Shown one piece after another: positions 1 to 25,653 of a stretch of 64,000 nt of DNA (the first letter of the stretch is position 1; every line of letters starts with the position of its first letter). The stretch comes from Tubiluchus corallicola (taxonomy: Eukaryota > Animalia > Priapulida). Under the pieces are notes generated by a model that saw only the letters and a program-made list of their open reading frames with translations, did not search any database and was not told the DNA's origin. The DNA is taken from the NCBI GenBank assembly GCA_030141605.1, contig JAQGDQ010000217.1:124001-188000 (forward strand). The letters are read 5' to 3'. Position numbers and translations under genes: made by a program.

Positions 1-526
1 ATAATATACATAACAAATTGAAACAAGTTTAGGCTTCTCTTTTGAAGTACGGGCGTTACCAAAAATGAAACGGAAAAATATTTAGTCTTAAAATGCAGTT
101 TCTTAATGGCCATAACAGTTTGATCAATGAAATTTTTAACAGTGATTTAACTTTTTAATCTGTAAATAGTTTTATCGTAGTAATACTTTGTGTGAAAGTG
201 TAATGCAGTGGTTTCTTTTGTACAGATGTAGCAGTTTTTTAATGTACATGTGTGTTGATACGGGTTTTTACTTGGATTAAAGTGCATCTTATCTCATCAT
301 ATCTAGATAAATATCTAACAAAAACCCAAAAAAATTTACCATCAGTTGAACAAATAAGAAATTTCATTCCCAGAAAGAGAAAAAACCCAAAGATTTGTAA
401 AACTGCTACCCTTAGTTAGAAATGTATCTGAAGTAAATATAAACGTAAGAATTAAGCGCTCACTGTAATAATGTAACACTGCCAAATAGAATTATGAGTT
501 CATGTTACCAAAAACAACATGCATAC

Positions 527-733
527 CAAACTGCTTGATGTTTTAGTAGCTCTTTTATTCGCTGATGAGAATAATTTATTCGTTTTCGATGAAATCTTTT
601 TCTCTGGCGTTTGTATTCTTTCAGTGGAACTTGGTTTTTGTCTGCTGGCTGTTGCGTTTTGCTTATCGAATGGCAACAACATCGATGGTCCAGTGTCCCG
701 CTTATACCTACTCCTTCTGTTTTTGAACCATGT
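527..733 (-). CDS. Homeobox gene exon, recognition helix (residue 47 onward) plus basic/Ser-rich tail
   Basis: tttttcag acceptor then TWFKNRRSRYKRDTGPSMLLPFDKQ...TSSSL; GTATGC donor. Confidence 0.85.
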
Positions 734-3700
734 CTGAAAAAATTAGGTGATTAATATTGTTCTCCTTTTTGTTAAATAATATGATATTTATTCAGTGTTT
801 ACCATATGAGCTTATGGGCAATCAAATTATTGTAAACATCGTTTACAGTGGGGCTACTATGCATGCGTTTCTCTCTTTCACTTTTGACTGCTGTCCTGAT
901 CAGTTCTCTGTTGCTGTTTGTGAATATGTGTAAAAACATTAATTTATATGTTTTATCGGTGTTAGGAGAGATATTATACAATTGCGGACATTTGTTAAAC
1001 CAGTGATCTCATAGGAAGAACCCATTCAAACTGTCAAGACATTTTCAGCAATTCTAGACAAATATTTTTAAAGTTGTAATATCTGGGGGCTTAAAATATG
1101 ACAACAAACAGAGAACGTATAAAGTGTGCATTTAATATAAGAGAGTTTCTAATGAAACAAAAGAAAATTTTGACTTTTAATACAATGTACTCTGCTTAAT
1201 AAATCAACCTTGGTGAGCAGACCTAACCAAGGTTTAAATACATTTAAAAAGTAGTTGGATTTGTAAACTGATGAAGCCTATTAAGTATTGTTTTCCATGT
1301 TACTATACTGAGTATTGTTTATTAAATGAAGCCAAGACTTTTAACACTCAGTAAACTGTTTGCAAAACGTTCTTAAGTAAAGTACAATAATTTATTAGCG
1401 TTCGTATAATTAAAGTAACTCACATAAAACACGTGACTTATCTATGATCTATTACGTTTTACATCTGATAACTTGATAGCCAAGTTAAAATTAGGCAGAT
1501 ATTAACGTTCTAGCAAACAACTGTTTACAGCAACAATTAGCATGTCAGTTTAATCTAATAATGTATGTAAAATGAGCAAGCAAGACCATAAAATGCTCGA
1601 GACATGTCCAGTGTGGTCTGTTTTAGCGAATTTTTTTCGAAAATGCATTTCGAGTTCGATGAAGTGTAGCATGTTTGAATAGTCACTGTTCTGCAGTCCA
1701 CAGTGCAGTGTTTCCAGGGCATCCCATTTCAGCAGTTTTCATACAGTAATTTCTGGTTTGTCGTTGTCGTCACCGCCATCTTGTTGTTCAGAATCATTAA
1801 GTGAAAAAATGCAAAGCTGTAAAACGTTTAGAATAAAGATGCTACTATGCTGGACAATTGTGTGGTCTGATGTTTCAATTCTCTAGGCTACGCAGCATGC
1901 AAGACGGATTCTTAAAGCGATGTTTGAGTTTAATAAATGGCGGATTTTACTAGGTTAAAGTATTACACAGTTCCACTCCAGCAATAGTGGCCATAAGCAG
2001 GTGAATTTATTATCTGTAGATATATTAAGCAGATTCTACTATAACTGTAATGGCAATAAAAGCTTGTGATGCTCAAAGATTGTTCGAGTTGAGGACAGGT
2101 TACCTGAGGTAATAGGTCTTTAGATTTAAAGTTTGGGTCAAGACCCAAATTACCATGTCCAAATCTCAGTTGAACTGCAAATCCAGATGGTCAGATGTGC
2201 GTCAAAGGTTTGATTCATCTTCGGAATGTATGATGAAGCAGGCAAATGTAGAAGCTCCCCGGATTTATGGCCGAATGTATACAGTGGTGGACTGGCCCAC
2301 CGGAATACCGGGAAATTTCCCGGTGGGCCCCTAAGTGATGGAACATCACTTTAGAAATAGCCGAGAAAAGTAAAAGCTAAAGAAAAAGAAAAATTTTGTG
2401 TAGATTGTGGCTGACAGGCAAACTCAGGGACAGACAGCCTGTCTGCCTTGCACATGCTCGCTAATATGTCTGGTAGGATAATTTTCATTTGACGATATAA
2501 TCACAGCAGTACTTCACCAGTCCACCTTATATTGTGCCTAATGAGCAAGTTACAATTATATTGATGTTTTAATTAATGAAGCGGCAACTCCCAAGAATGA
2601 GTTTAAACGATTCAAAACTCACTACAATTCCTATGCAGTCTGACACATGCAACCAAATATATCTGCAAAAATAAGACGAAAGGACAAAAACAATTTTGGG
2701 TAGGTAAAACACTAAGGCTAAAGCAGATGAAAAACGGGTAACCAACGAAAAACATTTGATGAAATCATGCTACAATAAACGTACTTTAATTGTAGAATAA
2801 TTGACAGTATAAGTATATATACAGGTATCTGCATAATCGGCTTAATGTCTAACGAAATCATAAAAAAATCTAACTTGTTTTACTATTCACAGTTGTGTTC
2901 TTTGCATTCACAATTTACTATTCAAAGAAATCCCATTATTTAATCAATTCTTAAATGTAGGATAAACCATTTGCATTAACAACTACATTTTTGGTAGGCC
3001 ACTACAAGAAGGAATACATGTTTTAGCAAAAGTCAACAAAAGACCACAGCATGAACATCTCCTACAGGTAATAATCTAGCTTACCTTGTTATGAGGCTGA
3101 ATAAAACAGTAAAATATGTAAAAGCATTCTGTTCACACATTACCCAAGACTATTCTAAGATCATTTTCACCTCATTGGGAGTGCGTTTAAACTTAAACTG
3201 CATAAACTAAAAAGCTGTGTACACAATAAAAAATTCAAACTTACATTAACCCTGTCATATGTTTGTCCAGTTTTAATGGCGATAATTTGTTTCGTTGCGG
3301 TTGCTGGATATTTGTCATTAGTAAAAATCTGCTCCATCAAATCTTTCTGCTCCTATAAGAAACACAAAAGCGATTATAGTAATAAACTTGAAAATATCTA
3401 AGCCTACAAGAAACGTGAAAACAATTATAATAAACTTTGGAAACTTTTATCGAAAAATGTATTTGAACTTGAGGTTTACTTATAAGAAATTGATAATAAC
3501 TTCATAAACTAGCTTAGCAGGAAAGAACCTATGGTACAACTAACCCGGTTACTTGTGCACTGAAGACACTAATTTAACCTATAATTTACTGCAGTCGAAA
3601 GGTTGCATTACGCTTAAACCTTAGTGGGTATTGTTTGATTTGGTCTTACCTGAGATTCAATTTAATTATGCTGTAGAAACAGACTAGTCAAAGAATAAAC

Positions 3701-5589: not shown

Positions 5590-6693
5590 ATGTTTGGCAG
5601 TCAAGATGGATCAAGGTAGTGTCCCACCAAACCTAATGTTATCCTTAGCGAACGTGTACACGAAAAATCTCGTGAGTTTAACAAGGTAACAGCGCAGGGT
5701 TATGTTAACGCAACTTGCACCTACACACAAGTGATTTAGATACGTTTACTGCATGGGGTTTGGTAGATTCAGCAACAACAAAGTTGACAGAACAGACAAA
5801 AGCAATTGATAACATTCCCAGCAATACGTTGGAATTTGTAAATAAATGTAATGACAAGATTTCACAGATGAAAATCAAACATAGGAAATCGATACTTTGA
5901 AAACAGCGTTGCTTGTTAAGAGACAGAGGAAGAAGAAAAGAATGGCAGATGGGCTTGTTAATGATGAAGGAAATACCCCAGATTCTCTGGCTGATTTTCG
6001 AGTAAATGTGTTTAACCTAATAATGGATCGTGTTTTCCAATCACTAGAATCACGATATGTACAGCACAAACAGTTGCATAAAGATTTGTCTGCTTAGACC
6101 CAGCAAAGTTTAACACTACTGCAGAAAAGGGCCTTGAAGACAAAGCATTGGAATGTATTATGAAGTTGTTTCCACAAATCAGAAAGGAGCAAGTAAAACA
6201 GGAATTTTCTTTTGCTTCAAACTTTGATGTATTAAAACTATTGTTTAATGATGGTGAGAATTATATAGGTTGCAATTATAGAGGAATAAAAATGGGCAAT
6301 TCCACATTTCCATATTGTCCCAGGATTTGCAAAAATACTGTCACGACTTTGTGGCAAGATTTTTTGTGCTATAGATTAGATATATTATATTATAAATAAT
6401 TTATTTATATTTAAATAATAATAATAAAATAAATAAATACTATATAAAGTACACAACACACATCTACCAAAAATTTATTTAAAAATTCAACCATAACATT
6501 CTGTATTTACATTTGGCATTACTGTACATCGCTAGTAATATCGTAATGCAAACTTTCAATTGCACCTTTTGGTTTTCACATGCATTTTTTGAAAATTTTA
6601 TTTATTCATAATAAAATAAATGATAGCATTGTAGTGTGGAAGGGCCCCCTTTGTCTCTTGGCAACCAATATTTTTAGACCCAGTCCACCACTG
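5590..6693 (+). mobile_element. Decayed hAT (ZMYM1-like) transposase fragment with right TIR
   Basis: Broken ORFs 5715-5900, 5897-6097 and 6148-6399 with hAT-like segments (LHTSDLDTFTAWGLV; RQRKKKRMAD...FRVNVFNLIMDRVFQSLESRY...DLS..DP.KF); right TIR CCAGTCCACCACTG at 6680-6693 is the exact reverse complement of 2282-2295; left boundary approximate. Confidence 0.7.
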
Positions 6694-7984: not shown

Positions 7985-10900
7985 ATGGTGAAACGAAAGA
8001 ATACAAGTAGAATATTCGTTGACTCCGACTCTTCGGACAGCGAAAGTGGAGCTGATCTTGAAGAAGTAGGCTTAAGTTGTTTACTTGCAGTTCATGTTAT
8101 GTTAAGATTAATCAAAAATTAGTTTCGTCAGTGTTAGAGCCACATCATCGTGAACTCTTTTTTACAGTGTTTGTGAGAAAATTTCCATTGTGATAAACAT
8201 CTCCTTTTTTGTTGTTGGAGCATCTGTGGGAACATTTTGTCGATAGACATTGACTTATAAATTTTTTTATAATTATGTAGATGTGGAAATGGGATAGTAT
8301 TACTTATTAATTAGTAATAGTAGTAGTAATTATTTCAGGACACTATTACGCTTTCGCATCTCCTAGTTTTTTCTAGGCTTGTCGGTCATTGTTCTGTATC
8401 CTATGTCATCAGCGAACTTTCCAGTAATCCCGTGATAATTTAATGCTGTGCTTAGTCGTGCCATCATTCAGTCAGCCATGGATCAACAGTGCACATAAAC
8501 GAAAAACCCAGCTTAAGGATAGATCATATTCTACTAGTAAGAGCATTGACAGTGTTCATACTGAGCAGAAATTTTTTTGTTTTGAAGATAATTGCCGTGC
8601 ACATTGGGCTTACATCTATTAGGGGTAGGACAAAGCTTAAATTTCCAAAGACGAACCAAATCTAAATCTTTAACTCAAAATTTTCAATACCAGATTGAAT
8701 CCAAATCTTGTAACTTAATGCCAGTTAGGTTTTTCATCTTAGGATCAGCGTAGTGTTAGTTACAATGGATAAGTTTTGTTGAAACATAATGGTCTTGCTG
8801 AACACAGTATAATTATAAGTTTTTTATTTCAGATTTAGTTTTTGTTTTAGTTCATGTTCAGCTTTCTTTGTTCTCCTTGTATTGCCATCTAGAAAATACT
8901 GCTATTGCTATGAAAAATATGCATGGCGCCATGTACAAAGAATTCAGAAAAATTTTGAGATATTACAAGAGGCAATTGTGATTGTTTCTGTAGTTGTAGC
9001 TTGCAATACAAATCATTTTTTATTTTGGCCAATTTTATATACGTTTATAAAAAACATTATTTTTGAATGAGGCAAGTACAGATAAGCTGTATGTGTACAT
9101 AACATGTGCTTATATATCGCAATCTTTAATTGCTGTTGTTATAAATATGTACTGTACAGAGTACACCAGTTTTTTCGAATGTTACCACAAAGTATTTAAT
9201 AGCTACTTTTGGTCTTTCTAGCTCTTTTTCAAGTGATTGTTATATTATTTTACTACTATACTCAATGATCTAACAAAAGATTTTTCTTTTTATTTATATA
9301 CAGGAATTAAGGACACTGACGAAAAAGCGAAAAAAGGCAGAGCCAGAAGTGAAAAATACCAAACAGCAGCCAGATTCAGATTCTGGAACCTCAGACAGTG
9401 ATGATGATGTATGTTTATTAAATTTCTCTTCATATATACTTAGTGTACGTATGACAGTACTTAGCAAAATCACATTAATGCTACATTGTCATTCATCACC
9501 TGCTCTGGCAGAGAATGTTCCAGTCAAAAATTTGCTGTGAAAAACGTACTTTATTTTTACAAATCAAATTACTGTTCTTGATTATTTTATTAAAGTGCCT
9601 TTATAACTGATTTTCCTTCAGTGGACAGTTGGTAGCAGAGGCTCCACTAAGAAAAAGAAAATCAAGAAACCAACGAAGAAACCGGCTGTTCAACCTGAAA
9701 GTGAAAGTGAGGGTGAGATTGTAAGCGACAAAGCAGATAGTTCCGGTCCAGAAGAAGGTAGGTGTTAGCACATTATTAGCAGGTAGCTTTACTTTAAGTT
9801 GTGATGTTCTGGCAAGATTGGCATTGTCCACTCCAGATCGAAATTTATTCCAGTCCAAAATTGCCCACTCCATCGGTTTTTGCACAGTTCTTCTAACTTT
9901 GCTTTACAAATCCATTTGCTGCCAAGTGGGTTGACCAGTGTGGACAGGCTGAAGAAAAAGACGGTTAAGAAAATTTTGGTTTCGTATTAAGTTTTTATAT
10001 CGGTCTTCTTTTCATATGTGTTGGGAGAACAGGCATTAGATGGAGGTAATGCCTGATCACATAATAAGCTACTTTGGCCGTAAAAAGTAATTATATTACT
10101 ATCATAGACACTCATAACAATCAAATAACTTGGCCATTAAACTTTATAATGAATTGCAAATACATACTGCACATCAATAACAATAAATAAAAACACTGTT
10201 AGCATAAATAGACTAACATAATCACGTTTTACCGTATATAGAGCACAGATTAAAAACCATTTCAAACATTATCACACAGTAGAGCACATTTCATTACATA
10301 ATCCAATCAGTTAAACATTTCATACATGGTCATACAACTGCAAAGAAAAAACCATTATCATTAAAGAAAAAGCCGTCATTAGCTATAAAGAAAAATATCA
10401 TTAGTCTTAGTATATACAAAGCTAACGTGAACTCTATAGACTATCAAAGAGAAACAAGTTTACCAGGCATTTTTATGAGAATACTGTAGAAAATGAATCA
10501 GTTAAAGTAGCTTAAATAGATAACTTAGCAAATCGTCTAGTGAGTTGAAACCTTATTCATTATTAATAAGTAAAAAACTCCAAATTGACAGTACCTCTGC
10601 CATTCTCATCTTAATGAAACATTGTTGAAATCAGTGAGATTCGGGTCTCACCAAATGCATTTGCATTAAGTTGACCCTGCCATTGCAGAACACTGTTTTG
10701 CAGAATGCCGAACTATATAAAGAATGATGTATGAAATGGAAGAGTATATTAAATGGGTGATTTCTGAACTTGCCCTGATGTGCAATTCTACCACATTGAA
10801 TTTACCAGAGCTTAGCTAAACAATAATAACTTTAACACACAATTAAAGCAATTGTTCACAATGTTAGGCCTTCTATTGTTAACAAGTCAAGATGTTTTGG

Positions 10901-13900
10901 TATTTGTGAGTAGCAATATAATTATGTCGGATTATTCTAAGCTGTAAACAAAAATACGATATTTTTGGAATTAATCATTTTTATGTATTCATTTAGTTTT
11001 ATGTGATTTTTCATTCATATTTTGCTACTGTGTGGCGTAGGTGAGGTATCTGACTCAGGATCTGGTGTGGGCTCGGAATCTGATGATGAACAGTTCAATG
11101 ATGGCTATGATGAGAACTTGATTGGAGACGAAGATGATCGTGAACGTCTAGAACAAATGACAGAAAAAGACAGAGAACAGGAACTGTTTAAACGAATTGA
11201 ACAGCGAGATGTTTTAAAAACTAGGTTTGAAACTTTGCGTTTTTAGGGCAGTTAATTTGAGAAACAGTTGAAGTTTTGATATTTAAGCAAATTACTGTTT
11301 ACGATTTTTAAAAGAAAAAAGTCATGTTGTTGGACTTCAACTTGCCAGAGGGCAGAGCTTACTGGTTAAATTTCTGTGGTGCAACTACATTTTTATATTA
11401 ATTTGGAGTTTATTATTTTTTGTGTTTGAGAATTTTGTATATTGTGTCTTTTGCAATAAATAATTCATAATTACTTTATATGTACAGTATGTTGAGTAAC
11501 TAAGTATTTAACACAGTGTTAAGTTCATTTCACTGAATTGTGTGTTTGTTGATCATGGTAGATTTGAGATTGAGAAGAAATTACGTCAGGCAAAGAAGAA
11601 AGAGCAGAAGAGAAAAGCAAAGAAACAGAATGAAAAACAACACAAGACTCCGCCTCTCAGCACACCGCCTGTTTTCTCTCGCAGCACGGAACGGCGAAAA
11701 ACCGTGGAGGAAAACAAGAAGCAAGACAAGAAACAGTCAGCCTTTGAAGCACTTAAGGCCCAAAGAGAAAAGAAAAAAGAATTGGGTAAGATTTTTGGTA
11801 AAGGCTGTTAGCCATGCATTTGTAATTATTAATTTTTAAATTAACAATGCTATGATGTCATTTTGTATCATAAATTTAAGTAACACATGCACAGAGAGTG
11901 GCTGCTAGACATGCCAAAACTGAGGCAAACAATGGGTGCAAATTTGTAACAGAAATTCTATGGCCTGCAGTTAGGATAACAATAGGTTCCATGTTCTTAA
12001 GCAAAAACTGCATTCGACGACTGTTAGCAAAACAGTTTTTGAGCAACACACTTTTGAAGTATTGATCATAATTGCAGACTAACTCTGTGTATGGTATTTT
12101 AAAGTTGTTAGTTCATCTTCATTTTAAATTGATCTATTGAATCTGATAATGTGGACATCGTGTATCGCGAGCAACAATCCTGCATAGATTACTTTATACT
12201 ATACTAAAAATTCACTTAGCTAAAGGCCACCTACTTCACATTATGGCAAAGATTCATACAACTTTGAACTGACTGACGAATGCACAATATGTGGTTTTTA
12301 AGGCACCTTGTATTTAAAACAAATAACAGTTTTTTTCACAATGCATGTGAGAATGTGTTTGCTTTAACAGTAATTTCCATTTATTATGGCAGATATTAAT
12401 ATGATTGTATTATTATAGGTTTATTGGTATTCCTGTACAGTCTTATATGTTTCAGTTCTGTATCTGACTTTTCTCTATGGGAGTGTGTCCCAAAGTCATT
12501 TCCTTATTTCTGCCAGACTTGTACAGGGCTGGAACTATCATGAAATGTCACTACCTAGAGTGTGTTTCCCTCGTTTTTGTAATCACTTTCTGGCGTAGTA
12601 GCTGGTATTAAGAAAACAGTTTAGGCTTTAAAAAAGGGAAGGTAGGAAAGAGATGAAAGAGGCAGTGTAAAAGCAAGTTGTGCTGCCTCTAAGTCTTGGC
12701 AGCCGAGCTGAACTATGACGTTGTTGTTGTAACTTGGTTGGGACTAGTAAGTAAACTATTTACTATTCCAAAGTATTCATCAAAATAAACGAAAACCATT
12801 CTTTCTCAAGACTGAGATAATTATAGTAAATCCTTTCCGTTAATTTATGACTCTGCACTTAATGATCCGACCAAAAGCTACAATACGCCTATATATTAAG
12901 AGCAGTAAAGCTTTGTAGTGTAGTTCTTACCATAGCGAAAATTCACATAACTATTGATAGACGAAAGCAGCACAGAATCTGCAGCTAAAAATTAGCAAAT
13001 AAAAATATCAAAAATCTACAGATGAAATCCTCTGTTTTTTTCTGTATTTAAACTGCAGCAGTTTTTTTTTGTGCAGTGTTTGCAAATATTTTTGCTTTAA
13101 CAGAGGCAAAAAAGCCGCTGAGAGCCAGCGATGTTTACTCAGATGAAGAAGATGATGAAGAGGAGGAAGATAAGCACAAATCAAACCCTGTTAGTACAGC
13201 ATCATCATCGGAATCGGAATTGTCTCGCGGAAGCGGAAAATCTGATTCTGAATCAGATGATAGTGATGAGTATGAATTACACAAGCTTATTAAATTTGTA
13301 TTGTGATATTTCTTCATTGCTGTGTTATTGGTCCGACAGAACATAGTTGTAATCATCAGATAGTAAATAAAGACAATTAGTAATTAGTATTAATTATCTT
13401 ATTGATTGGTATCGCAAATTGAACAAAATACTGTGAGATTTAATTAGTCAATTTAAGGGAAAAAGGTACTTTTCTTTCCATAATAGCTTGGAACGCATTA
13501 GTAATGTCTTGATAATGTACAGTAGTTTCACTTGTGTTTATTGGCATAAGTAATAAAAATACTTGCTAAACTTTGAAATGGTGCTGTTGTCATTAGTTAA
13601 ATAAAGCACTTATCATTTTTGCTCTTGTCTGATTGTTGAAAGGTGGAAACGTCAAATTAGTGAAAAATATGTGATCAAATAAGAAAAAACATTTTATTTT
13701 GAAGAACAGACATTATTCTAGTTACTTGGTGCTGTTTTGGTAACTCATTTATCAAGATCATCATTGGTAATTATATAGATTCCAGTTCTTCCACAACATT
13801 CAACATAAAAAATAGCTCACTTGATTAATTAGTTTACTGTGTTTTACATATTGCAGCTCGTTGAGTATGGAAGTCGAAAAGAAACCAAAGAAAACTATTT

Positions 13901-16900
13901 TGATTTCCACAAAAGACGATCTGTCACGAATTAAACTTTCTCGTCATAAAATGGAGAAGTAAGTAGTGTTTAGTCAACTTTAGTTATTGCGTTTGTGTTT
14001 TAAAAAAGTAAGCGGTTTTTCACTTCCTTTGCTTACCTGCTTTTCTTTACTTTTTCTTCACCTGCGTTTCCTGTCCTAAGTCTATTCATTTGTTAGTTTA
14101 TGTTTTGTTAGAATGTACACTTGTACAGAACGACTATGTTGCATTGACTGTAATGAACTGTGTAATGTTTTCAGGAAAAGAGTCTGACGTGAAACTTATT
14201 TCTGATGCTTGAGAATTTATTGCATATTTTTGATGTCTAGTGAAGTTAGTGAAGTCTTCTAAATTTTATCACGACATATTTTTGTTGCATTTTAAAGCTG
14301 TATTTAACTGCAGTGAAAGTTAATTGTTCTAAGTTACATTGTTAAACAATTAATAAGCCAGTGGATGTTTGTGCATTCATCAGTTTGCCTAATATTTTGT
14401 TGTAATTGTTTTGTAACAGGTGGTGCCATGCCCCGTTCTTCAACAAAACATGTACAGGTTGTTTCGTACGGATAGGAATCGGAAATAATGAAGGTCGACC
14501 AGTGTATCGTGTAGCGGAAATAGTGGAAGTCGTGGAGACAGCGAAGATTTACCAGCTTGGCTCGACGCGAACCAACAAGGGCTTAAAATTGAGGTATGGT
14601 GTGAAATTTCAGTAATAGTTGCTTGCTGCCATGAATACATCTTAATAAGCTAAGGGAAATTCATCTTCCTGCTGTTACATGACTAGTAATATGTAATATA
14701 TTATTATTTGTTCCACTATATCAGTAATTTAATTTGGGAGCATGGTATACTCAGGACTTCAGTATACTGAGGTGTACTCAGTATTCATCAAAAATTTCAA
14801 TGAAAATTTGAATGACCATAAAATAAATACTGTTATATTACCGTGTGAGATTTACACGTGCATTAACTGTATGATGCACTCATGGATGACACAGTGCATC
14901 TTTAAAAACTGTACTGTGATAGTTTTATTGCCAAAGTCCATACAAATGACGCTAAATAAGTAAGGTTGCATTTAAACAATTTATGTATGTCGAAGTAGAT
15001 GCTGCCTTCATCCATGTCAGCTCATTTATAAAAAGCTTTATGGAATTCTAAAGATCATTACCCTTTATCTTCTTTCTTAACCAACCTGTTCCTCTTAGCG
15101 TCCTAAGTTATTACATTTTTGTTAACCTGTTCAGATAAAACTACTCAATTTTCATTCATGTTCATGCTAAGCTTACATTATAGTGAGAAATTTGTAGCTT
15201 GTCATAAGCTTGCTAGGTTAAACCATGCAAAATCGATAAAACTCAGTAAGTTCCGTAACTGCATTTCAGGCACGGAACCCAGGAACGCGTGTTCCGATTA
15301 GAGTTTGTCTCCAACAGTGAATTTACCGACAGTGAGTTTGAGAAGTGGAAGTACACGATGATGTCTCAGGATTTGCAGGTACCGACTTTGGATCACATAG
15401 AGAAGAAGGAACGGGACATCAAATATGCACTCGAGTTCAAATTTACGGATCGGGATATAGAACAGGTACAAAGAACCAGAATCCATACCTGTTGGTACAA
15501 AAAATTAGTTGTTCGTTATTAAAATAATTTTCAGTATTAGAATTTGCTTTATTGTGCATATTAGTTTTCCAGGTGTTACTGCATTGCTCATTTCCTGTAT
15601 TGCAGATAGTTCAAGAGAAGGAACGGTTCAAGAAAAATCCTCATAACTATGCCATGCGCAAGGCAGAACTGCAGAAAAAGCTTGCTGTTGCTGAGCAAAA
15701 TGGAGAGTCAGATCAGGTTGCACAGCTGAAGGAGAAACTAGACGAGTTAGAAGAACGTGCAAAGGAGCTAGACCGGAAGCGTACAGAGAACATATCAGCC
15801 ATAAACTATATCAATCAGCGAAATCGGCAGAGAAATATACAAGAAGCTGAAAAAGCGATTGTGGTAAATATTACTAAATAGCTAGATATTACATGGCTGA
15901 TGAGCTGTACCTCAAAGTTTTTCTTTAACTAGCTGTGCTATACCAGCTATGTGTACCTCCCAATGTCCACATTGCAGCGTTCAGTGGAATTTTGTGACGT
16001 ATACAAAACAATGTATAGCGATTGAATCAGACTTGGTATTGCTTAATTTCTTCACCCTAGGTTTTAATATTTAGATGTGGTATCCCAAATCTAAACTGTA
16101 TTCAGAATCCACTACTCAACTGCAGAAGTGTTTGTCATGTTAGTGGTTGTGGTCAAGCCTAACTCATTTTTAAAGTTAAAATGAAACAGTAAACCGGTAT
16201 ATGTGTTTTAACTACGTTCAGGTGCATGTAAATCCTCCCAAATCAGGAAAGAACCTTGAAGCAATATGACAGGTGAATTACTTGGTTGATAAGTACTTAC
16301 TATGAATGCCCAACTAATCACTTACCCCTTGTGCAAGTTTTTTTTTTGTGCATTTGTAGATGCTTAGTTGACATTTGTCAGAAATTGCATTCTAGAAAAC
16401 AAACGTACCTTTGAATTTTAATAATTTTAAACCTGTCTTCTGATGTCATCTGATGTTCTTATATGAAAATTTGCAAGTGGTGGCACTGAACTTTTATGGA
16501 CATCTTTTTTGACCACGTGACATGTGTAAGAAGCTAATTGCTCGTCCACGAAATGGAGGAAACATAAAGAATTAACATTTCATATTGCCGTTATTCACAG
16601 CTTTAAGGAATATAAATGGACAGAGTACAATTCATGTTGGTTCCTCATGTTGGGTATTGTCACTTCATTGATTTTTTATTTCTGGCATTAAGATTGAAAA
16701 AAATTTAAAAAAAAACAGGTTAAGCTAGAAATATAATGATTGAACTATAAAAAAATATGTTTATGTGTACTTGTGATAAATTTTAAGCATAGGGGGCCGT
16801 CATTTCCTGACGTTGTACATTGACAGTTGAGAGTCTGTTCATCATATTTCATTTTGTTATAGCTAGAAGCAGAAGAAATGAAGAATGCTCCATCAGATCC

Positions 16901-19604
16901 CTTCACAAGGCGGAAATGCAATCCACAGATGGTAACAACTATCAGAGATCAGATGTCATCTGCAGAAATTCTTGCCAAGTTAGCGGAAGAGCGTGTCCGA
17001 CGTGAAAAAGAAGAGCAAATGAAGGAAGCAGGACTTACAGACAAACAGGTAAAGAGTTATAGGGTTGGCAGTTGATTTCACCCAATTTAATTCCTGTATA
17101 TTGAATGTGTTTCTTAAAAAAGTTAAAAATTAGTGCTGAGACAAAATTCTGTGATTGAATGGTATTTTACAAGTGCATTGTTGCACTGTAACACAACTTA
17201 GATTTGCCATCACAGGCTAAAATTATTATTTGTATCCCATTCGATAAACCCTGTAAACTGAAATATATATAGAGAAATGCTTATCTGGTTAGTTATTGCC
17301 AAAAGGCACCCTTTAGAATAAGTTTGTAGACCTGTTTTGTTGTGGTTATATAATGAATTTCCAGGTAGATTTCTGTATTTATTTGATGATTGCATGCTGC
17401 ATTTCATTTATACATTATTATACTTGTTGAACAAAATAGTATGATAATTAGTTGTATTTGGTTTTAGTCTTTTATCTGTCAATATTTATCTATATTGCGA
17501 AATTGTGGTTCGTTATAATTACAGACTTTTCTATGCTTGGGTTCCTGTTTAAATGTAAAATCTTAAAACGTGTTATAATGACCCTGTGAATCGTGTTTCG
17601 TAATGTATATTATTTCCAGACAAAATTTGAACAGTCGAATCAGCAACTTCCTTCTGATACCGTAAGCTACGTGTTTTAATTGCTGTTGCTTGCAAGCTCC
17701 CTATGCAAATCAGTGCTCACAGCTATATTAACAATGCATTTGAACTTTTTTGTTCCTTGCACAAATCTTAAATAAGAAAAAAGTGCTGCTGGGAGTTAAG
17801 TCAGGAACACCAGATTATATACTACTAACCTGCAATAATCTCACATTTAATTAGCAGTAGACTGCCTGTATTTTGTTTTTCTCCATTTGTGGATTTGCTT
17901 TCTCTAACATTTTTTGTTGTATGCTGTGTTTATTGCACTGTTTTGGAAGAATCTACATTTTAATTGTGCTACATTTTAATCGCTTCATATCATGCTGGCT
18001 GTGCTTAGCATATTGATGAAATTGCTGTTCACTCGAATCTCACTGGTAAACATGTTTCTTTTAAAATATCCGTTCTGTCCGTGTTTATTAATCATGATTG
18101 CTTCTGAAGCTACAGTTTCACAGGGCTGCGATTTTTGCGATGACCAAAAAAAGTCTCGTGACATCCAACAGTTGCTAAAAATTTCACAGGACTACTATAT
18201 TTTGTTGTCCAGGACACAAATCATTCATGCGACGTTCTTGTGCATATATTTGTGCAGAATTGGGACACATTCATACAACTTTACAACAGTTTTTGGAGAA
18301 GCTTTGGCAATGTGCTGAGTTTTACGATTCCGGCAGACCAACTGACAAATTGTAAACATTAAAAGTTTTCTGCCAAAGCTAGCAACCTTTTGGCAAGAAT
18401 GGTGACACTCGCGCAATATTTTGTGACTATTTAGAGAACTTTTGGGGCATATTTAGCAACTGTTGGACATGTAAATTTTGGATAGTTACCAAAGTCGCAA
18501 ACTCCATGAAACCTTGGCTTAAGCATGTGTAGCGGTTTTGCCTGCACATCTAGATATTGGAAAAGCAAGTTCATTTATTTTGCAGACTATTTCATAAAAA
18601 TTAAAATGATTGCTTTTAGTAGATAGTATGTGGCTATTTTTAAAATTCTCTGTATTACTAGCTCTACTGTCAGGTTGTCATTTTTTTGACTTCAGCAGAG
18701 TTATTTGGAAACATTAACAGGATAAAACATCACGTAATTTATAAATTTATTTTAACTACAGGTTGACATATTGACAATGTCTAGTGGTGAGGGCAAGTCT
18801 ATCCGGAAAGGTGACCCTTTGCCATCGGCACCCTCCAATGATGATCTCTTCTCAGCACATGATTTTGATATCAAGATTGATCTTAATGTTCCATCTATAG
18901 GTAACCTTTTTCAGTACCCAATTTTAGTTCATAACATAAGTATTTTGCTCTAAACATTGAAAGAGAAATGTTTTTTTAAGAATAACTTTAATTGAAGAAA
19001 TTGTGTTTCAAAAAATACCATTTGTCCCAATCTGGAAAAAACAGCCTAATCATGATGCCAGGAAACTGAAGGAAGAGTCCTGACGCATTGACATAATCAT
19101 GAACTTGAAATTCGATTTGCGAAAAATAAAATTTGTCGAGTTTCCGGATTTCACCATCAGTGTTATACAGCAGCAGCTTATTACAGTTTTTGCATTTGCA
19201 AATATACAAGACTTGCGAGATAATTCCTGTTGTGTTTTGTTTAATTTTGTGTGAATGCAATTACTGATGCCCAATTCTGTTGAAATACATTACTTTTACC
19301 AAGTGAGTATTTACTGTACGTCTCTTGGATATACTTCTGTGCGATTTGACTACAGTTTGTACAGAGACATGTCAAATTAAGCAATCTAGTATTAGTTTAA
19401 AATTTTAAAGAAGTGGATGTTGTGTACCTGTTTATAGTAAGTATTTAGCGTCATTTGACGCATTAAGAAATTTCGTCTTTTTACACACTGCTATAGAACA
19501 TGCAAGGTGTATATTGAGTAATTTTGTTTGTAATATTTATCCATGTTTTACCATTGTACTGTAGGACTGTATAATTTTGCATGTCCCCATGTAGTGATGT
19601 AAAC

Positions 19605-19635
<31 letters not shown>

Positions 19636-22600
19636 GGAAACATCAGCTTCTAATGTGATAGATTAATGATATACATTACACAACAGTTCAGGCAACCTGG
19701 CAAGTTTCACTACTTGTGTAGTCTAATGTGGCATAATTTTATTTTTTATTGAATTTTCACATATTTTGACAAAGATGGAAGAACAGACCACAGTAAATGT
19801 ATATCCTTGCAACTCCAAGTCTCATGTATCTTATTTATTAATCATTTTGTTGGTCAACTTTAAATAAGTAAGGCTGAAATAATTATTGTGGCATCGCACA
19901 ATAGCTCTTAATGGTTCATTCCTTAAAATGATCTGTAAACTGAAGTATTGACCTCCTCCAAAATGATATTTTATCTGTGTCTAGAACATAGTTGTATTTC
20001 TATGAAATGTGCTGTATTGCCTGCAAGCATTTTCTTGGGCTAGTTCCTCAGACTCTTGGTTACTACTTGCAAGATGCATTGTCTTAAGTTCTTTTAAGGT
20101 CTTTGCAGGTATAGCTTAATTTTAATGTTGTGCTTTCTTTTCGGTTGTTGTGCTCATCATATCAAACCTTGATGGCAGAGCTGGCCGCAAGAGGTGTTGC
20201 CACCCTGCTGGTGGTTAGAGCTGTTTGAATGCAGGCATAGTTATTTTTTGGCACACCGTATGCATGTGCATAAAAATGCAGTATAATAATTTCATTGAAT
20301 GATACTGTGTTATACCATAGTCTGTTTGAAAGATCATGTATACATATTCCTTACAGTCTTATTTATATAATAATTTAATTATCCATATACTTTATAAGCA
20401 CAGGCATAGTAGAACTACTGTACCTCAAATTTACTGCCTAATTGTGTTTGCAGAATAAGTTACTTAGCTGAATTTTATTAAAGAAAGTGTTGTTTTTTTC
20501 TCAAGAAAATGTGTAGCCAAATTAATTTTTGCGATTTGCAATGATCATCACCACCATCATAAAAAACATCCGTCAGTTACGTCTATTGGTGTAAGGTTCT
20601 TGCACATTGCTAAACTGGATGTTGCTGTAGTGTAGTCTGTTGGAAGGACTTCCTACCCATCATATCATATAATCTATTCATTGATAACAAGTTCTTGGAA
20701 TGTGCATGACACTGCCAGTTCACACTAACTTTTGCTATTGAAAAGCATAAAATCCAACACTTGTTTTGGTTAACATGAAAAACCATAATACTAAGCAGAC
20801 CCCCATAAAAAGTAACATCAAGTTTTAGACCTGCTGGTTTTTCAAGTGAATCCTTTGACAATGCATTTTTTTGAAAAAAGCAGATTAATTACTCCTGTAC
20901 CGTTGATTTACTCCCACCAAAAAATCTACTAGCTCCCAACAGGTTTAATCCAAACAGCAAAGATAGTGATATCTTCAGATGTGTGCTAAATTTAGAAATT
21001 ATGTTTTAGATTGCTTATACTCATGTAGGTATTACATAGGTCTCATAGTTAGGGCTGCACAGTAACTAATAGAAAAAACAATTAGCAAAGGGGACTCTTT
21101 GCAGCACATTGTTATGTGCACATGAAAAATGAATGTGGATTACTTTACTCTCTATCTGCTAGAGTCTAGCATGTGGCCCATGAGGTGCAGAGCTGATTGG
21201 GAGAAATTGATCGAATTGGTTTAAGGCCTGTCCTGCTTGATGGTGACAGAGGAGTTAACCCGGCCTCTGGTATCTAGAGCCCTCTTCTCTAGATGCACTT
21301 GGGCAACTCTTGTCTGGCGCATCCTAGTCGCGGGGGTGGATGCTGCGGGAGCAGTAACTAAGTTCAGGCAAGGACCCAGTGGTGCGGGGTATAGCGCGCC
21401 ACCCTTGGTCAGGGATACGACTGAAGGATGCTGCGGGAGCAGTAACTAAGTTCAGGCAAGGACCCAGTGGTGCTGGGTATAGCACGCCACCCTTGGTCAG
21501 GGATACGACTGAAGTCCTCAGCGGTTTTATAGGCGGACGAGGAATCTTCCACTCCCAACGGCTGTAAAAGCGGATGAAGGCACCCAAGCACAAGGGCAGC
21601 AGCTTGTGTGGATGATGGTTCATGGCGTGCAAGTCTGGCAACTCGTCTTCTGGCATGGCATGGCTCATCGAGAAGCTAGCAGTTCATTTTGCCGATTCGG
21701 CCTGTTTCCTGGTTGTCTTCACTGCGGTGCAACAGATTATGAGTGCGGCCGTCGTGTCTCTTCATGCCGCCGATCTACACTCTATCTGCCAAGTGGAGGT
21801 GGACTTTGAGCGGCCATTTCTTCTCGCGCGCAAGCGTCTCAGTGCTAATTCTTTTCTCCATGATGATGACTACGACAAATGATGACAACACTATGCTACC
21901 GCGTCCAGGGGAGCCGACGCGCCGTCCAGTGGCAACGGTGAGAAATTTGCGAAGCCCACAACCCAAGAATCTCCTTAGTTTAGGATGTTGGAATGTCAGA
22001 ACCACAAATGATAATAATGGAAATTTACGGCCCGAGAGGGCCACTGCGATTATCTGTGAAGCTCTAAACGACGTCAACATTGATATCTGCGCAGTTTCTG
22101 AAGTCCGACGCCCTGGTGAAGGCAATGTGGTAGAGAAGACCCATACCATTTATTGGAGCGGAGGTGTACACCAGGTTGCAGGAGTTGGCTTCGCAGTGTC
22201 TAACAAGTTACAATTGGAGTCACAGCCCTTAGCTATCAATGATCGTCTCATGATGTTGAAACTTCGGCTACAGGACAGATCCTTTCTTACTCTCTTTAGC
22301 GTGTATGGCCCCACTTTGCAGTGCTCTAATCATGAAAAAGAATCGTTCTACGATAATCTCACTGCTCATGCTAGGCAAGCTGCAAATGATGGCAAGGTGA
22401 TTATCCTAGGGGACATGAATGCAAGAGTAGGAAGAGATTCTATGACTTGGCCAGGTGTGCTTGGCAAACATGGAACAGGGAACATGAACTCAAACGGACT
22501 TCTACTGCTAGAATTTTGTGCCAGGATGGAGTTCTCTGTGACTGGAAGCTTCTTCAGGCTTCACGATAGGATGAAGACTACATGGCAGCATGCGCGGTCC

Positions 22601-25600
22601 AAGCACTGGCATCAACTTGATCACATCTTGGCTTGTAAGAAAACCATGAGTGACAACAACATCCGTGTGACCAAAGCAAGTCTAACTGCAGACTGTTTCA
22701 CGGATCACAGATTGTTGGTGTGCAAATGTTCATTCATGCTACAGAAACCTGCTCGCCCTCAGCGTCCACCAAAGAGGTTCAATGTCGAAGTTGACGAAGG
22801 CAAAGAATCCAAACTGCAGGTTTATCTTGCCAATGTTTTGAGTGATTGTAGACCATCTTGGGATGAAACCAAGGAAATCCTACTCAACAGTGCAGAAGCT
22901 GTGTTCGGTAAACAAGGAAATCGCAACCGAGACTGGTTCAACGAGCTTGAAATCGGTGCACTAGTCAAGGACAAGAAAAACAGGCGTGAGCTCAGAAATC
23001 ATCCGACTTATGAAGAATCAGTGGTTCCAGGACCGAGCCAATGAAGTTGAAAGACACGCCCAAATGAAGAATTTCCGGGAATTCTACGCTTCTCTCAATG
23101 CCGTTTATGGTCCGACATCGCGTTGTAACCATCCTATCAAATCTATTGCTGATGACACTCTCAACTCATCCAATGATATCCAGAATCGTTGGATGGAGCA
23201 CTTCAGCACTTTACTGAATCAAACTACCGACGCTGACTTTACTATCTTGGATGAAATACCTCAGTTATCAGCCATCGATGAGATGGATGGACTAGTTACC
23301 CTCGAGGAACTCAAGTACTCTATTCGCCGTATCAAGCGACGGAAAAGCCCTGGACCTGATGGTGTCCCACCAGAGGTTATCATCCATGGCGGTGCTTCTC
23401 TCCAGAATCATCTTTTGGAGCTCTTCAACGTTATTTGGAGGACTGGTGATATGCCTCGTGACTTTGTCAATGCTAACATCACCATTTTGTTCAAAAAGGG
23501 TGTTCGCAGTGATTGCGGTAACTATCGTGGCATTTCCTTACTCAGTGTTGTCGGAAAGCTTTTTGCAGACATTCTTCTCGTTCGGCTGGACAAGATTTTG
23601 GAGCGTATCTACCCAGAGTCTCAGTCAGGGTATCGACGGGATCGCAGTACCATTGATGGTATTTTTACGATTCGTCAGCTGATGGAGAAAACGAGAGAGC
23701 ATAGAACATCAATGCATATTGCCTTTATCGACTTTACAAAGGCATTTGACTGTGTCAATCGCGAACTGCTGTACAAGGTGCTTTCAAAGTGTGGATGCCC
23801 AGATCGATTTACAAGTATGGTAAAAGCTCTGCACACTGATATGCTAGCGCGTCTCTCTGTCAATGGCCAGCTTAGTGATCCTGTAGAATACAACAGCGGT
23901 GTGAAACAAGGCTGCAAGTTAGCTCCATCTCTTTTCGAACTTTTCGCTGCAGTCCTTTTGCAGGTAGCCTTCGGCAGACTTGGCTCGACGAAGAGCATTC
24001 ATGTTCGATTCAGATATGATGGAGACATTTTTGACCTACGTCGACTCAAAGCAAGGACGAAGACACGAATGATGTTCCTGCGTGAAGCACAATATGCCGA
24101 TGACATAGCTATCTTCTCTGACAACCCGGAAGACCTTCAGGATCTCATCGACATTTACAATGAAACTGCAAAGAGAATGGGACTGCGCATTAACAAAAGG
24201 AAGACTGAGACAATGAGTGTCGGCTCTAGTGACAGTGTCAATTTTACCATTGACGGAGAACAGCTTGGAAGTGTGCAACGGTTCAAATATCTCAGAAGTT
24301 ACATCTGTTCAGATACTCGATTGGATACTGAGCTTCATGCAAGAATTAATGCTGCAGCCAGCTCTTTCGGCCGTATGAGGAAACGTGTCTTCGATAACCA
24401 TGACCTTACCATCGCCACTAAACTGCAGGTGTACAAGCAATGCATCATTCCGCAGCTTACCTATGGTCAGGAAACGTGGACGCTCTATCAAGATCAGGTC
24501 AGGTCTCTTCGTGCGGTTCAGCAGAGACATCTGCGTCACATCCTTCGTATTCGCTGGGACGACTATGTGCCAAACGAAGACGTGCATGCTCGTGCCAAGA
24601 TGGAAGATATCGAGGTTACGCTTACTAAGGCTCAACTTCGGTGGTTTGGGCATGTGGTCAGAATGAACGATAAGAGACCGACAAAGGCCCTTCTCCATGG
24701 AGAACTAACCAGTGGCTCTCGCAGTGTTGGTCGTCCTCTCCTTCGCTTCAAGGACAAGGTGAAGTTCTCTCTGAGGAAAGGTGGAATGTTGGACAAGCTG
24801 CCTTTCGCAGTTCACGACCGTCCTGCATGGAGATCCCTAGTCAACAACTGTGTCGAAAAACTCGATGAAGAAAGACGGATGCTTGGATACGCAAGAAGGT
24901 TCAAGTCGTGGATAAGAGATGGTTTCATGGACATCTGACTCGCACTGATTTAGCCGTATCGGCTTCGACGTTGTACTGCTTGATGGTGCAAAATGATAAT
25001 GTGATAATGTCATCTTCTAGTTCTTTCCCCACAGACACTTTTCTAATGTATCTAAAATCTTCTTTGCATAGGAAAGTATGAGTAAGCATCTGCACTTAGT
25101 GTCCTTGTCAAGCGGACACTGTACATGTCCATCATTATTTGCTTTAGCTTTATTTCTGCATTCATTTTTTTGATAAATATGTAATGCTTGGTATACCTGC
25201 TTAATCTTTTCATTTTTTTCCTTGAACAGATTGCTCATATAGGCACCGTTAGCATTTGTCTTAAAGCAAGTTTTTTTGGTTAACAAAAAACTTTTCTAGT
25301 AAAGATCTCCATGCGTACCAAGGCCTGACAGAAAATGTAGAAGACATTTGTGTGTAACTGTGTCGAATTTTTCTCCTTATACTTCATAGACCATAAACCT
25401 GAAAGACAATTAGTTAATGGGCGAATAAAGCAGTCCATGCTTAGTAGCATAAGATAGCATATTTACTGTGTATTATACGTATATACTAATATTAAACATT
25501 TCAAATTGATTTTTAACACTTTTGCTAATTATCTTTCTATTTTCAGCTTCACAAACGTCTATGACACCAAAACCATCTCAGGGTATTAAAGACACGGCTC

Positions 25601-25653
25601 CTCGTAGATCATTGAACCTCGAAGCTTATAAAAAACGTCGTGGTTTGATATGA
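7985..25653 (+). CDS. RTF1: RNA polymerase-associated protein RTF1 (PAF1 complex, Plus3 domain), 14 exons, about 699 aa
   Basis: Exons 7985-8065, 9304-9408, 9622-9757, 11041-11224, 11562-11785, 13104-13269, 13857-13958, 14420-14593, 15270-15465, 15606-15863, 16863-17048, 17620-17661 (tentative), 18762-18900, 25547-25653; all GT-AG with consistent phases (2100 nt). RTF1 motifs: [21 protein letters not shown], Plus3 [48 protein letters not shown]-terminal [16 protein letters not shown]. Confidence 0.97.
18113..18516. mobile_element. Possible MITE with imperfect TIRs in an RTF1 intron
   Basis: CAGTTTCACAGGGCTGCGATTTTTG versus reverse complement of the right end CAAGGTTTCATGGAGTTTGCGACTTTG. Confidence 0.35.
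19608..19631. repeat. (AT)n microsatellite
   Basis: About 12 AT units. Confidence 0.9.
21263..21373 (+). ncRNA. HDV-like self-cleaving ribozyme in the RTE 5' UTR
   Basis: P2 21308-21318/21362-21373 (one bulge); P3 GCA/CGC; L3 TCCTAGT; P1 3' strand GGGGGT; P1.1 CC/GG; P4 TGCTGC-GGGA-GCAGTA; catalytic C21358 followed by TAA. The P1 5' strand is ambiguous (GCCTCT 21263 or GCCCTC 21279). Confidence 0.68.
21338..21513 (+). repeat. 88-bp tandem duplication in the RTE 5' UTR
   Basis: 21338-21425 and 21426-21513 differ at only two positions (21386/21474, 21396/21484). Confidence 0.95.
21622..21882 (+). CDS. Short upstream ORF of the RTE element (candidate ORF1, 86 aa)
   Basis: ATG-initiated ORF overlapping the start of the APE-RT frame; short overlapping first ORFs are described for RTE elements; no recognisable domain. 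Confidence 0.3.
   Translation: MACKSGNSSSGMAWLIEKLAVHFADSACFLVVFTAVQQIMSAAVVSLHAADLHSICQVEVDFERPFLLARKRLSANSFLHDDDYDK
21860..23044 (+). CDS. RTE apurinic-like endonuclease domain (5' part of frameshifted APE-RT ORF)
   Basis: APE motifs [38 protein letters not shown]; first in-frame ATG at 21860. Confidence 0.9.
   Translation: MMMTTTNDDNTMLPRPGEPTRRPVATVRNLRSPQPKNLLSLGCWNVRTTNDNNGNLRPERATAIICEALNDVNIDICAVSEVRRPGEGNVVEKTHTIYWSGGVHQVAGVGFAVSNKLQLESQPLAINDRLMMLKLRLQDRSFLTLFSVYGPTLQCSNHEKESFYDNLTAHARQAANDGKVIILGDMNARVGRDSMTWPGVLGKHGTGNMNSNGLLLLEFCARMEFSVTGSFFRLHDRMKTTWQHARSKHWHQLDHILACKKTMSDNNIRVTKASLTADCFTDHRLLVCKCSFMLQKPARPQRPPKRFNVEVDEGKESKLQVYLANVLSDCRPSWDETKEILLNSAEAVFGKQGNRNRDWFNELEIGALVKDKKNRRELRNHPTYEESVVPGPSQ
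22986..24938 (+). CDS. RTE reverse transcriptase (3' part of frameshifted APE-RT ORF)
   Basis: [42 protein letters not shown], and RTE-type C-terminus LRWFGHV.RM...R..K.LL.GEL...R..GRP..RFKD. Confidence 0.93.
   Translation: MSSEIIRLMKNQWFQDRANEVERHAQMKNFREFYASLNAVYGPTSRCNHPIKSIADDTLNSSNDIQNRWMEHFSTLLNQTTDADFTILDEIPQLSAIDEMDGLVTLEELKYSIRRIKRRKSPGPDGVPPEVIIHGGASLQNHLLELFNVIWRTGDMPRDFVNANITILFKKGVRSDCGNYRGISLLSVVGKLFADILLVRLDKILERIYPESQSGYRRDRSTIDGIFTIRQLMEKTREHRTSMHIAFIDFTKAFDCVNRELLYKVLSKCGCPDRFTSMVKALHTDMLARLSVNGQLSDPVEYNSGVKQGCKLAPSLFELFAAVLLQVAFGRLGSTKSIHVRFRYDGDIFDLRRLKARTKTRMMFLREAQYADDIAIFSDNPEDLQDLIDIYNETAKRMGLRINKRKTETMSVGSSDSVNFTIDGEQLGSVQRFKYLRSYICSDTRLDTELHARINAAASSFGRMRKRVFDNHDLTIATKLQVYKQCIIPQLTYGQETWTLYQDQVRSLRAVQQRHLRHILRIRWDDYVPNEDVHARAKMEDIEVTLTKAQLRWFGHVVRMNDKRPTKALLHGELTSGSRSVGRPLLRFKDKVKFSLRKGGMLDKLPFAVHDRPAWRSLVNNCVEKLDEERRMLGYARRFKSWIRDGFMDI

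What the first reader, a model, noticed from the sequence alone, without database searches (positions are those of the whole stretch)
21263..21373. HDV-like self-cleaving ribozyme at the 5' end of the RTE element
Seen: all core elements in the correct order. P2 TCTTGTCTGGC (21308-18) pairs with GTTCAGGCAAGG (21362-73); P3 is GCA/CGC; L3 TCCTAGT has U and G at loop positions 1 and 6; P1 3' strand GGGGGT ends in U; P1.1 is CC/GG; P4 is a 6-bp stem with a GNRA loop; J4/2 is A-C-T-A-A. A 10-bp hairpin (21270-79/21287-96) fits a J1/2 insertion. Known: RTE and R2 elements use HDV-like ribozymes for 5' processing. Caveats: an A.C mismatch closes P3 (could be CpG decay from GCG) and the P1 partner is ambiguous.
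Basis: partly seen in the sequence, partly recalled or inferred. Interest (0 to 1): 0.82.

Follow-up and report, generated by a model that had tools for sequence, protein, structure and literature searches.

The report
Clipped retrotransposon HDV-like ribozyme
This is the front end of a jumping gene in a host intron: its family starts with a fold of a known self-cutting RNA type that likely frees the element from host transcripts, but this copy lacks 20 front bases found in sister copies, including the predicted cut site, and is probably inactive.

Summary
The HDV-like core is really there (P2, P3/L3, P1 3' strand, P1.1, P4, J4/2 C21358). My descriptor finds it once in the window and in 0 of 3,640 shuffles. 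It lies near the 5' end of an APE+RT non-LTR element (21246-~24971) in a sense intron of an Rtf1-like gene. Contigs of 4 of 4 runs read G at 21321, so the family's P3 is perfect. A second subfamily differs at 8 of 72 core sites and breaks no pair. Sister copies carry 20 more 5' bases; two different junctions diverge exactly at their first G, which starts a 6-bp P1 with a G-U pair. G21263 and G21279 lie inside predicted J1/2 hairpins. So the family likely cuts at its 5' end, while this copy is clipped, P3-mutated, partly duplicated and frameshifted. The closest match is drz-Agam-2-1; RTE ribozymes are published. The scan already holds 126 similar notes in at least 34 other genomes. No cleavage was tested. 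New member of a known kind; low interest.

The parts
21246..24971 (+). Non-LTR retrotransposon copy (APE + RT, one frameshifted ORF, RTE-type layout), 5'-clipped by 20 nt relative to sister copies; 3' end approximate
   Evidence: Pfam Exo_endo_phos and RVT_1; tblastn to full-length homologues with a frame change near 22945-23001; run contigs become shared at 21246
21229..21245 (+). 5' copy of a 17-nt target-site-duplication-like repeat
   Evidence: 16 of 17 identical to 24972-88; next best match in the window 13 of 17 (D16, 41)
24972..24988 (+). 3' copy of the target-site-duplication-like repeat (part of it may be the element's own tail)
21246..21253 (+). Remnant of the first J1/2 hairpin: 21248-53 can pair with bases 7-12 of the missing 20-mer (predicted)
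   Evidence: 6-bp duplex, -4.5 kcal/mol; 20-mer read table 7
21263..21268 (+).
   Evidence: positions 2-4 unpaired with probability 0.00-0.23 in four folds; pairs with 21301-04 or 21247-52
21270..21296 (+).
   Evidence: -11.5 kcal/mol, G21279 unpaired with probability 0.01-0.02; second subfamily keeps the stem with T-A to G.T and C-G to T.G changes (table 7, aligned by eye)
21308..21318 (+). P2 5' strand
   Evidence: no difference in the second subfamily by subtraction
21319..21331 (+). P3 (GCA/CGC here, GCG/CGC in the family) and the 7-nt L3 with U1, C2-C3 and G6
21332..21339 (+). P1 3' strand (6 nt, ends in U) and the P1.1 GG
   Evidence: same in both subfamilies; one contig of run X4 has one G fewer
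21341..21356 (+). P4, 6 bp with a 4-nt loop
   Evidence: in subfamily 2 the base pair changes T-A to G.T and the loop is swapped
21357..21361 (+). J4/2 with the predicted catalytic C21358 and A21360-A21361
   Evidence: only the variable position 21359 differs in subfamily 2
21362..21373 (+). P2 3' strand with bulged T21364
21426..21513 (+). Second unit of an 88-nt tandem duplication (P1.1 GG, P4, J4/2, P2 3' strand, downstream hairpin); not seen in run contigs
   Evidence: D1 (98% identical); joints skipping 88 nt (X1) and 90 nt (X4); no contig over 21408-25 in 4 of 4 runs
21893..24938 (+). APE + RT coding region, broken by one frameshift (start codon uncertain; in-frame ATGs at 21764, 21860-66, 21893)
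18901..25546 (+). Inferred last intron of an Rtf1-like host gene that holds the element in sense orientation
   Evidence: Plus-3 domain in upstream exons; GT and AG ends that join in frame

Best explanation
This is the 5'-clipped remnant of an HDV-like double-pseudoknot fold that heads an RTE-type retrotransposon family and likely cuts the element's RNA free of host transcripts at the family's first G, a base that this copy lacks, so this copy is probably inactive. Shown: the core helices and conserved bases; the family's G at 21321; 20 extra 5' bases in sister copies whose first six pair with 21332-37; and two different junctions diverging at that G. Inferred from HDV chemistry (PMC13635239): C21358 acts as general acid and Mg2+ activates the 2'-OH, giving a 5'-OH RNA that the element's own APE and RT copy into new sites. 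Inferred from drz-Agam-2-1 (PMC4908430): J1/2 hairpins and the long P2 pinch P1 and P2 together. In this copy, copying likely stopped 20 nt short of the RNA end; a CpG change then weakened P3, and the 3' half was duplicated.
For: Core pairs. Descriptor hits: 1 in the window, 0 in 3640 shuffles. G at 21321 in all laid contigs of 4 of 4 runs. Subfamily 2: 8 differences in 72 core sites, 6 in 17 unconstrained sites and 2 in 55 constrained sites, and those 2 form one retained pair (Fisher p = 0.0016; p = 0.025 when collapsed to events). 5' boundary: an X1 contig with one flank, an X3 inverted junction with a different flank, and an X2 contig that starts at the same G (tables 7-8). G plus five pyrimidines occurs at 0.7-1.2% of positions. 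Both decoys are buried in predicted hairpins. L3, P1.1 and J4/2 closely match the active drz-Agam-2-1 sequence (parsed by eye). The cut at the 5' junction is reported for RTE ribozymes (PMC3774820).
Against: No cleavage data. The upstream P1 is the weakest of the three candidates as an isolated duplex (-5.3 against -6.4 and -8.1 kcal/mol) and has three G.U pairs. Only two distinct 5' junctions were seen, from at most 2 samples, and X1, X2 and X4 are one sample. The P1 5' strand of subfamily 2 was not visible, so P1 has no covariation; P2, P3 and P1.1 are invariant between the two subfamilies, which says nothing about pairing. The nested core (-17.4) is less stable than a misfold (-24.4) that pairs P3/L3 with P1.1/P4, and the family letter barely changes that helix (-7.8 against -8.2). 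0 of 9 related loci at 35-59% protein identity gave a descriptor hit. One X4 contig has a P1 3' strand one G shorter.
Confidence: 0.8

Rival explanations
1. One reading: the ribozyme is complete in this copy and cuts at G21263 or G21279. The upstream bases would be a leader kept because some transcripts escape cleavage or start at an internal promoter.
For: Both hexamers pair fully with 21332-37 and more strongly than the upstream one. Subfamily 2's hairpin loop stays all-pyrimidine, so its G21279 equivalent could still pair.
Against: Copies share 37-53 nt upstream of these sites. G21279 closes a conserved 10-bp hairpin (unpaired probability 0.01-0.02), and 21264-66 are mostly paired. RTE ribozymes are reported to cut at the 5' junction.
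Confidence: 0.09
2. The fold is a real HDV-like relic, but the family no longer cuts. It is kept as a translation-initiation or protein-binding structure, or is simply young and decaying.
For: The review describes IRES-like and protein-binding roles for such ribozymes (PMC6765202 passages). P1 is weak and a misfold competes. Related families showed no descriptor hit.
Against: The catalytic C, the L3 U and G, and P1.1 are kept in both subfamilies while loops change. Junctions converge on the predicted cut site.
Confidence: 0.08
3. The 20 upstream bases belong to a preferred target repeat that supplies P1, as 28S rRNA does for many R2 elements, and this copy inserted elsewhere.
For: R2 precedent (PMC3774820). 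Only two junctions were seen.
Against: The two flanks differ immediately upstream of the G; a shared target repeat should continue upstream.
Confidence: 0.02
4. Chance resemblance in a G+C-rich 5' UTR.
For: No Rfam hit. The descriptor was written knowing the candidate.
Against: 0 of 3640 shuffles; variation avoids the paired core; position at the element's 5' boundary.
Confidence: 0.01

Closest known systems
drz-Agam-2-1, large HDV-like ribozyme (Webb et al. 2016, PMC4908430; part 1 of 4, passages and 3 supplement rows read)
   Same: Structured J1/2 domain, extended P2 (11 bp here, 12 bp there), P1.1 CC/GG, L3 of the form UCC-N-N-GU (5 of 7 identical in this copy, 6 of 7 in subfamily 2), J4/2 CUAA followed by G (my parse of the wild-type row). 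That Agam-2 heads an RTE element is recalled, not read.
   Different: P1 is 6 bp with a G.U first pair and three wobbles, against 7 Watson-Crick pairs. P4 is a 16-nt hairpin, against a long branched P4. J1/2 is predicted to hold two hairpins. This copy lacks its P1 5' strand.
5' HDV-like ribozymes of non-LTR retrotransposons: RTE, R2, R4, L1Tc (Ruminski et al. 2011, not held; known from passages in PMC3774820, PMC6765202 and PMC5786205)
   Same: Ribozyme fold at the 5' terminus of a non-LTR element that lies in a host intron, with the predicted cut at the element's 5' junction; dead copies with core mutations are described for R2.
   Different: A different family, whose closest named relatives are cnidarian; activity untested. 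I did not find this family in four successful paper searches, but Ruminski 2011 and repeat databases could not be checked.
CPEB3 intronic HDV-like ribozyme (passages in PMC6765202 and PMC13635239)
   Same: HDV-like fold in a sense intron of a host gene.
   Different: CPEB3 is conserved across mammals and complete. This one is part of a low-copy retrotransposon insertion and is clipped.

Membership tests
HDV-like ribozymes | Nested double pseudoknot, order P1-P2-P3/L3-P1'-P1.1-P4-J4/2-P2' | tested here: met
   for the family, using the P1 5' strand seen in run contigs
HDV-like ribozymes | 6-7 bp P1 starting at the cleavage site (PMC4908430) | tested here: inconclusive
   Met in sister copies (6 bp, G.U first). 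In this copy only the decoys 21263 and 21279 are available, and both are predicted to be buried. No covariation data.
HDV-like ribozymes | 3-bp P3 (recalled consensus) with L3 U and G reverse wobble (PMC3774820) | tested here: met
   Family GCG/CGC, U21322 and G21327 in both subfamilies; this copy has one mismatch
HDV-like ribozymes | 1-2 bp P1.1 | tested here: met
   CC 21323-24 / GG 21338-39 in both subfamilies
HDV-like ribozymes | Catalytic C and constrained A in J4/2 | tested here: met
   C21358, A21360 and A21361 unchanged in subfamily 2
HDV-like ribozymes | Covariation of helices | tested here: inconclusive
   Two subfamilies only: two-sided changes in P4 and in the J1/2 hairpin, both to G.U; P2, P3 and P1.1 invariant; P1 not visible
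HDV-like ribozymes | Mg2+- and C75-dependent self-cleavage | not testable with these tools
   needs an in vitro assay
HDV-like ribozymes | Match to a curated Rfam model | tested here: not met
   I treat this as a library limit, not a defining feature
RTE clade non-LTR retrotransposons | Single ORF with APE endonuclease and RT (PMC8501958 passage on Perere-3) | tested here: met
   homologues are single ORFs of about 990-1080 aa
RTE clade non-LTR retrotransposons | No C-terminal zinc knuckle (recalled feature) | tested here: met
   0 of 11 homologues matched a CCHC pattern in their last 200 residues
RTE clade non-LTR retrotransposons | Short 3' UTR ending in short tandem repeats (recalled feature) | tested here: inconclusive
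   3' UTR about 33 nt; no clear repeat tail before the TSD-like repeat
RTE clade non-LTR retrotransposons | RT groups with named RTE elements in a tree | not tested
   No named RTE reference was returned. One cluster member is named craniofacial development protein 2-like, a label I recall as typical of RTE endonucleases.

The most novel reading that the evidence does not exclude
The clipped copy re-forms P1 with its internal decoy at G21263 and still cuts slowly inside the sense intron of the Rtf1-like pre-mRNA. It would be a snapshot of a retrotransposon ribozyme moving its cut site and becoming an intronic, CPEB3-like host ribozyme.
Probability: 0.06. Interest if true: 0.5.

Novelty: new member of a known kind. 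Interest (0 to 1): 0.2.

Why it matters
It adds one more RTE-type family with an Agam-2-like ribozyme, which is expected biology. The practical lesson is that a P1 3' strand made of G's pairs with any pyrimidine run, so a descriptor hit in one copy can name the wrong cut site; the junctions of sister copies fix it. A clipped ribozyme in a sense intron of a conserved transcription-factor gene fits the idea that such insertions are tolerated when the ribozyme is dead, but one locus cannot test that.

Tried and rejected
No whole genome is held, so copies could not be counted or aligned; contig depth is not a copy number. Rfam: 0 hits at gathering in the window, 3 unrelated weak hits in 20900-22000, 4 unrelated hits in 4 of the 9 related loci. 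No RNA holder listed. The first metagenome scan and the viral protein scan confirmed no relative. The second metagenome scan gave 9 loci; a looser descriptor on their + strands found 0 of 9. Several of them have little or unrelated upstream DNA, L006-L008 are near-identical, and L001, L005 and L007 align mainly to the 3' part of the window's UTR, so this is weak evidence either way. Core-pattern scans gave 3 viral stretches and 1 bacterial stretch; read by eye they have no P2 or P4 context and are rejected as chance. No second copy of the core or the element lies in the window, and the 20-mer is absent at up to 3 mismatches. 7-bp versions of P1 at 21262, 21263 and 21279 either mismatch or use C21331, which P3 needs. 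Host-flank hexamers at 20910-21147 could pair with the P1 3' strand but lie outside the element and are not shared by copies. Earlier findings by sequence and by place showed nothing. No covariance model was built because only one full core sequence was held. Ruminski 2011 could not be read, so its list of RTE families may bear on novelty.

Full report
Observation. P2 has 9 + 2 bp with T21364 bulged. P3 is GCA/CGC with an A.C mismatch. L3 is TCCTAGT. The P1 3' strand is GGGGGT. P1.1 is CC/GG. P4 has 6 bp. J4/2 is ACTAA with C21358. A 10-bp hairpin lies at 21270-96. A descriptor that I wrote from recalled HDV-like rules, knowing the candidate, hits once in the window on both strands. It hits in 0 of 3000 dinucleotide shuffles of the first 500 nt, 0 of 600 shuffles of the element and 0 of 40 shuffles of the window. 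Rfam has no matching model at gathering or at E up to 10.

Context. Downstream are an endonuclease and a reverse transcriptase (Pfam) in what is one ORF in homologues and is broken here by one frameshift near 22945-23001. The best homologues are 52-59% identical, and the few named ones among the closest clusters are cnidarian. A 17-nt repeat, 21229-45 and 24972-88, 16 of 17 identical with the next best match at 13 of 17, brackets the element. The element lies in sense orientation between exons of an Rtf1-like gene (Plus-3 domain); a GT at 18901 and an AG at 25546 join in frame. The layout is RTE-like, but no tree with named RTEs was possible.

Other copies. No genome is held, so I laid contigs of 4 of the 6 listed public runs on the region; they come from at most two samples. 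In 4 of 4 runs all laid contigs read G at 21321, which gives a perfect P3, and the window's A is a CpG-type change. The 88-nt tandem duplication of the ribozyme's 3' half is skipped by contigs in X1 and X4, and no contig covers its junction in 4 of 4 runs. Contigs drop rare variants, so it may be private to this copy or an assembly artefact.

A second subfamily aligns over 21302-21405 with 15 differences from the window. One is the window's own A21321. Eight more lie in the 72-nt core: L3 position 4, all four L4 bases, the variable base of J4/2, and both sides of the P4 base pair (T-A to G.T). Six lie downstream. The count of zero differences in the P2 5' strand comes from subtraction, not from a direct read. 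Differences fall in 6 of 17 unconstrained and 2 of 55 constrained sites (Fisher p = 0.0016; p = 0.025 as events). Its J1/2 hairpin keeps the stem with a T-A to G.T and a C-G to T.G change (aligned by eye). This is conservation of the fold, but it is thin as covariation: two sequences, changes to wobble pairs, and invariant P2, P3 and P1.1.

The cut site. The window copy joins its flank at 21246, but sister copies carry 20 more bases (table 7). An X1 contig shows them behind one flank, an X3 inverted junction shows them behind a different one, and an X2 contig starts on their first base. The two flanks differ immediately upstream of that base, a G. It starts GCCTTC, which pairs over all 6 bases with 21332-37, with G.U first. 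G plus five pyrimidines occurs at 0.7-1.2% of positions. The next six bases can pair with 21248-53, and the rest of J1/2 folds as a long hairpin that pairs 21263-66 with 21301-04 and encloses the 10-bp stem. The 20-mer is absent from the window. Against this reading: the upstream P1 is the weakest duplex of the three (-5.3 against -6.4 and -8.1 kcal/mol), only two junctions were seen, a misfold of the core is more stable than the nested helices (-24.4 against -17.4, without P1 and P1.1), one X4 contig has a shorter G run, and 0 of 9 more distant loci gave a descriptor hit.

Mechanism. Inferred: the element is transcribed inside host RNA, the double pseudoknot folds, and C21358 as general acid with Mg2+ cuts 5' of the first G (chemistry from PMC13635239, part 1 of 8 read). 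The element's APE and RT then copy the freed RNA into new sites. The structured J1/2 and the long P2 would speed folding as in drz-Agam-2-1 (PMC4908430). This copy likely arose from copying that stopped 20 nt early, and then decayed. Confidence 0.8. None of this was assayed.

Known systems. PMC4908430 gives a 6- or 7-bp P1 as normal and a 12-bp P2 with a P1.2 helix for Agam-2. Its wild-type sequence, parsed by eye, has L3 UCCACGU, P1.1 GG and J4/2 CUAA, close to this core. PMC3774820 (parts 1 and 3 of 7 and passages) states that RTE ribozymes cut at the 5' junction and describes dead R2 copies with core mutations. PMC6765202 (passages) says RTEs are transcribed from introns or downstream of LTR elements and use these ribozymes for release. 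PMC5786205 (passages) lists RTE among six clades with 5' ribozymes. PMC8501958 (passages) describes an RTE that uses twister instead. PMC4035085 (passages) notes that strict descriptors miss members. The primary RTE paper, Ruminski 2011, was not held. The scan itself has 126 notes with these words in at least 34 genomes; they are unchecked AI notes and were not used as support.

Verdict. [quoted passage not shown] P1 and covariation are inconclusive and activity is untested. New member of a known kind, interest 0.2.

Noticed in passing
window 21150-21245: The flank upstream of the element is itself repeated: 21193-21237 matches other contigs with 7 differences in 40-45 nt. One frame reads like the end of a retrotransposon ORF. 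The element may have landed at the 3' end of an older relic, which could also explain part of the TSD-like match.
   Followed up: partly
window 21377-21406 (run X3, record 20): A contig joins the reverse complement of the family's 5' end to position 21377, as expected for a 5'-inverted (twin-primed) copy. Run X2 also shows a copy truncated at 21378, so two independent breaks fall just downstream of the ribozyme.
   Followed up: partly
window 21378-21402: A strong 8-bp hairpin (-14.2 kcal/mol) follows the ribozyme directly. Subfamily 2 has six differences in 21374-21405; whether they are compensatory could not be read.
   Followed up: partly
L001:750-830 and L005:345-420: Two related elements from different samples begin to share sequence at the same point and show no HDV-like descriptor hit; this may be a different 5' structure or a shared truncation.
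   Followed up: partly
window about 9274-25625 (+): Multi-exon Rtf1-like gene; Plus-3 domain in exons at 14406-612 and 15259-519.
   Followed up: partly
window 500-742 (-): A frame starting FFQTWFKNRRSRYKR looks like the end of a homeodomain (recalled motif).
   Followed up: no
window 5885-6399 (+): Frames that read like a decayed DNA transposase (impression only).
   Followed up: no
L007:5-114: A long imperfect hairpin that gives weak miRNA-family scores, probably a miniature inverted repeat.
   Followed up: no
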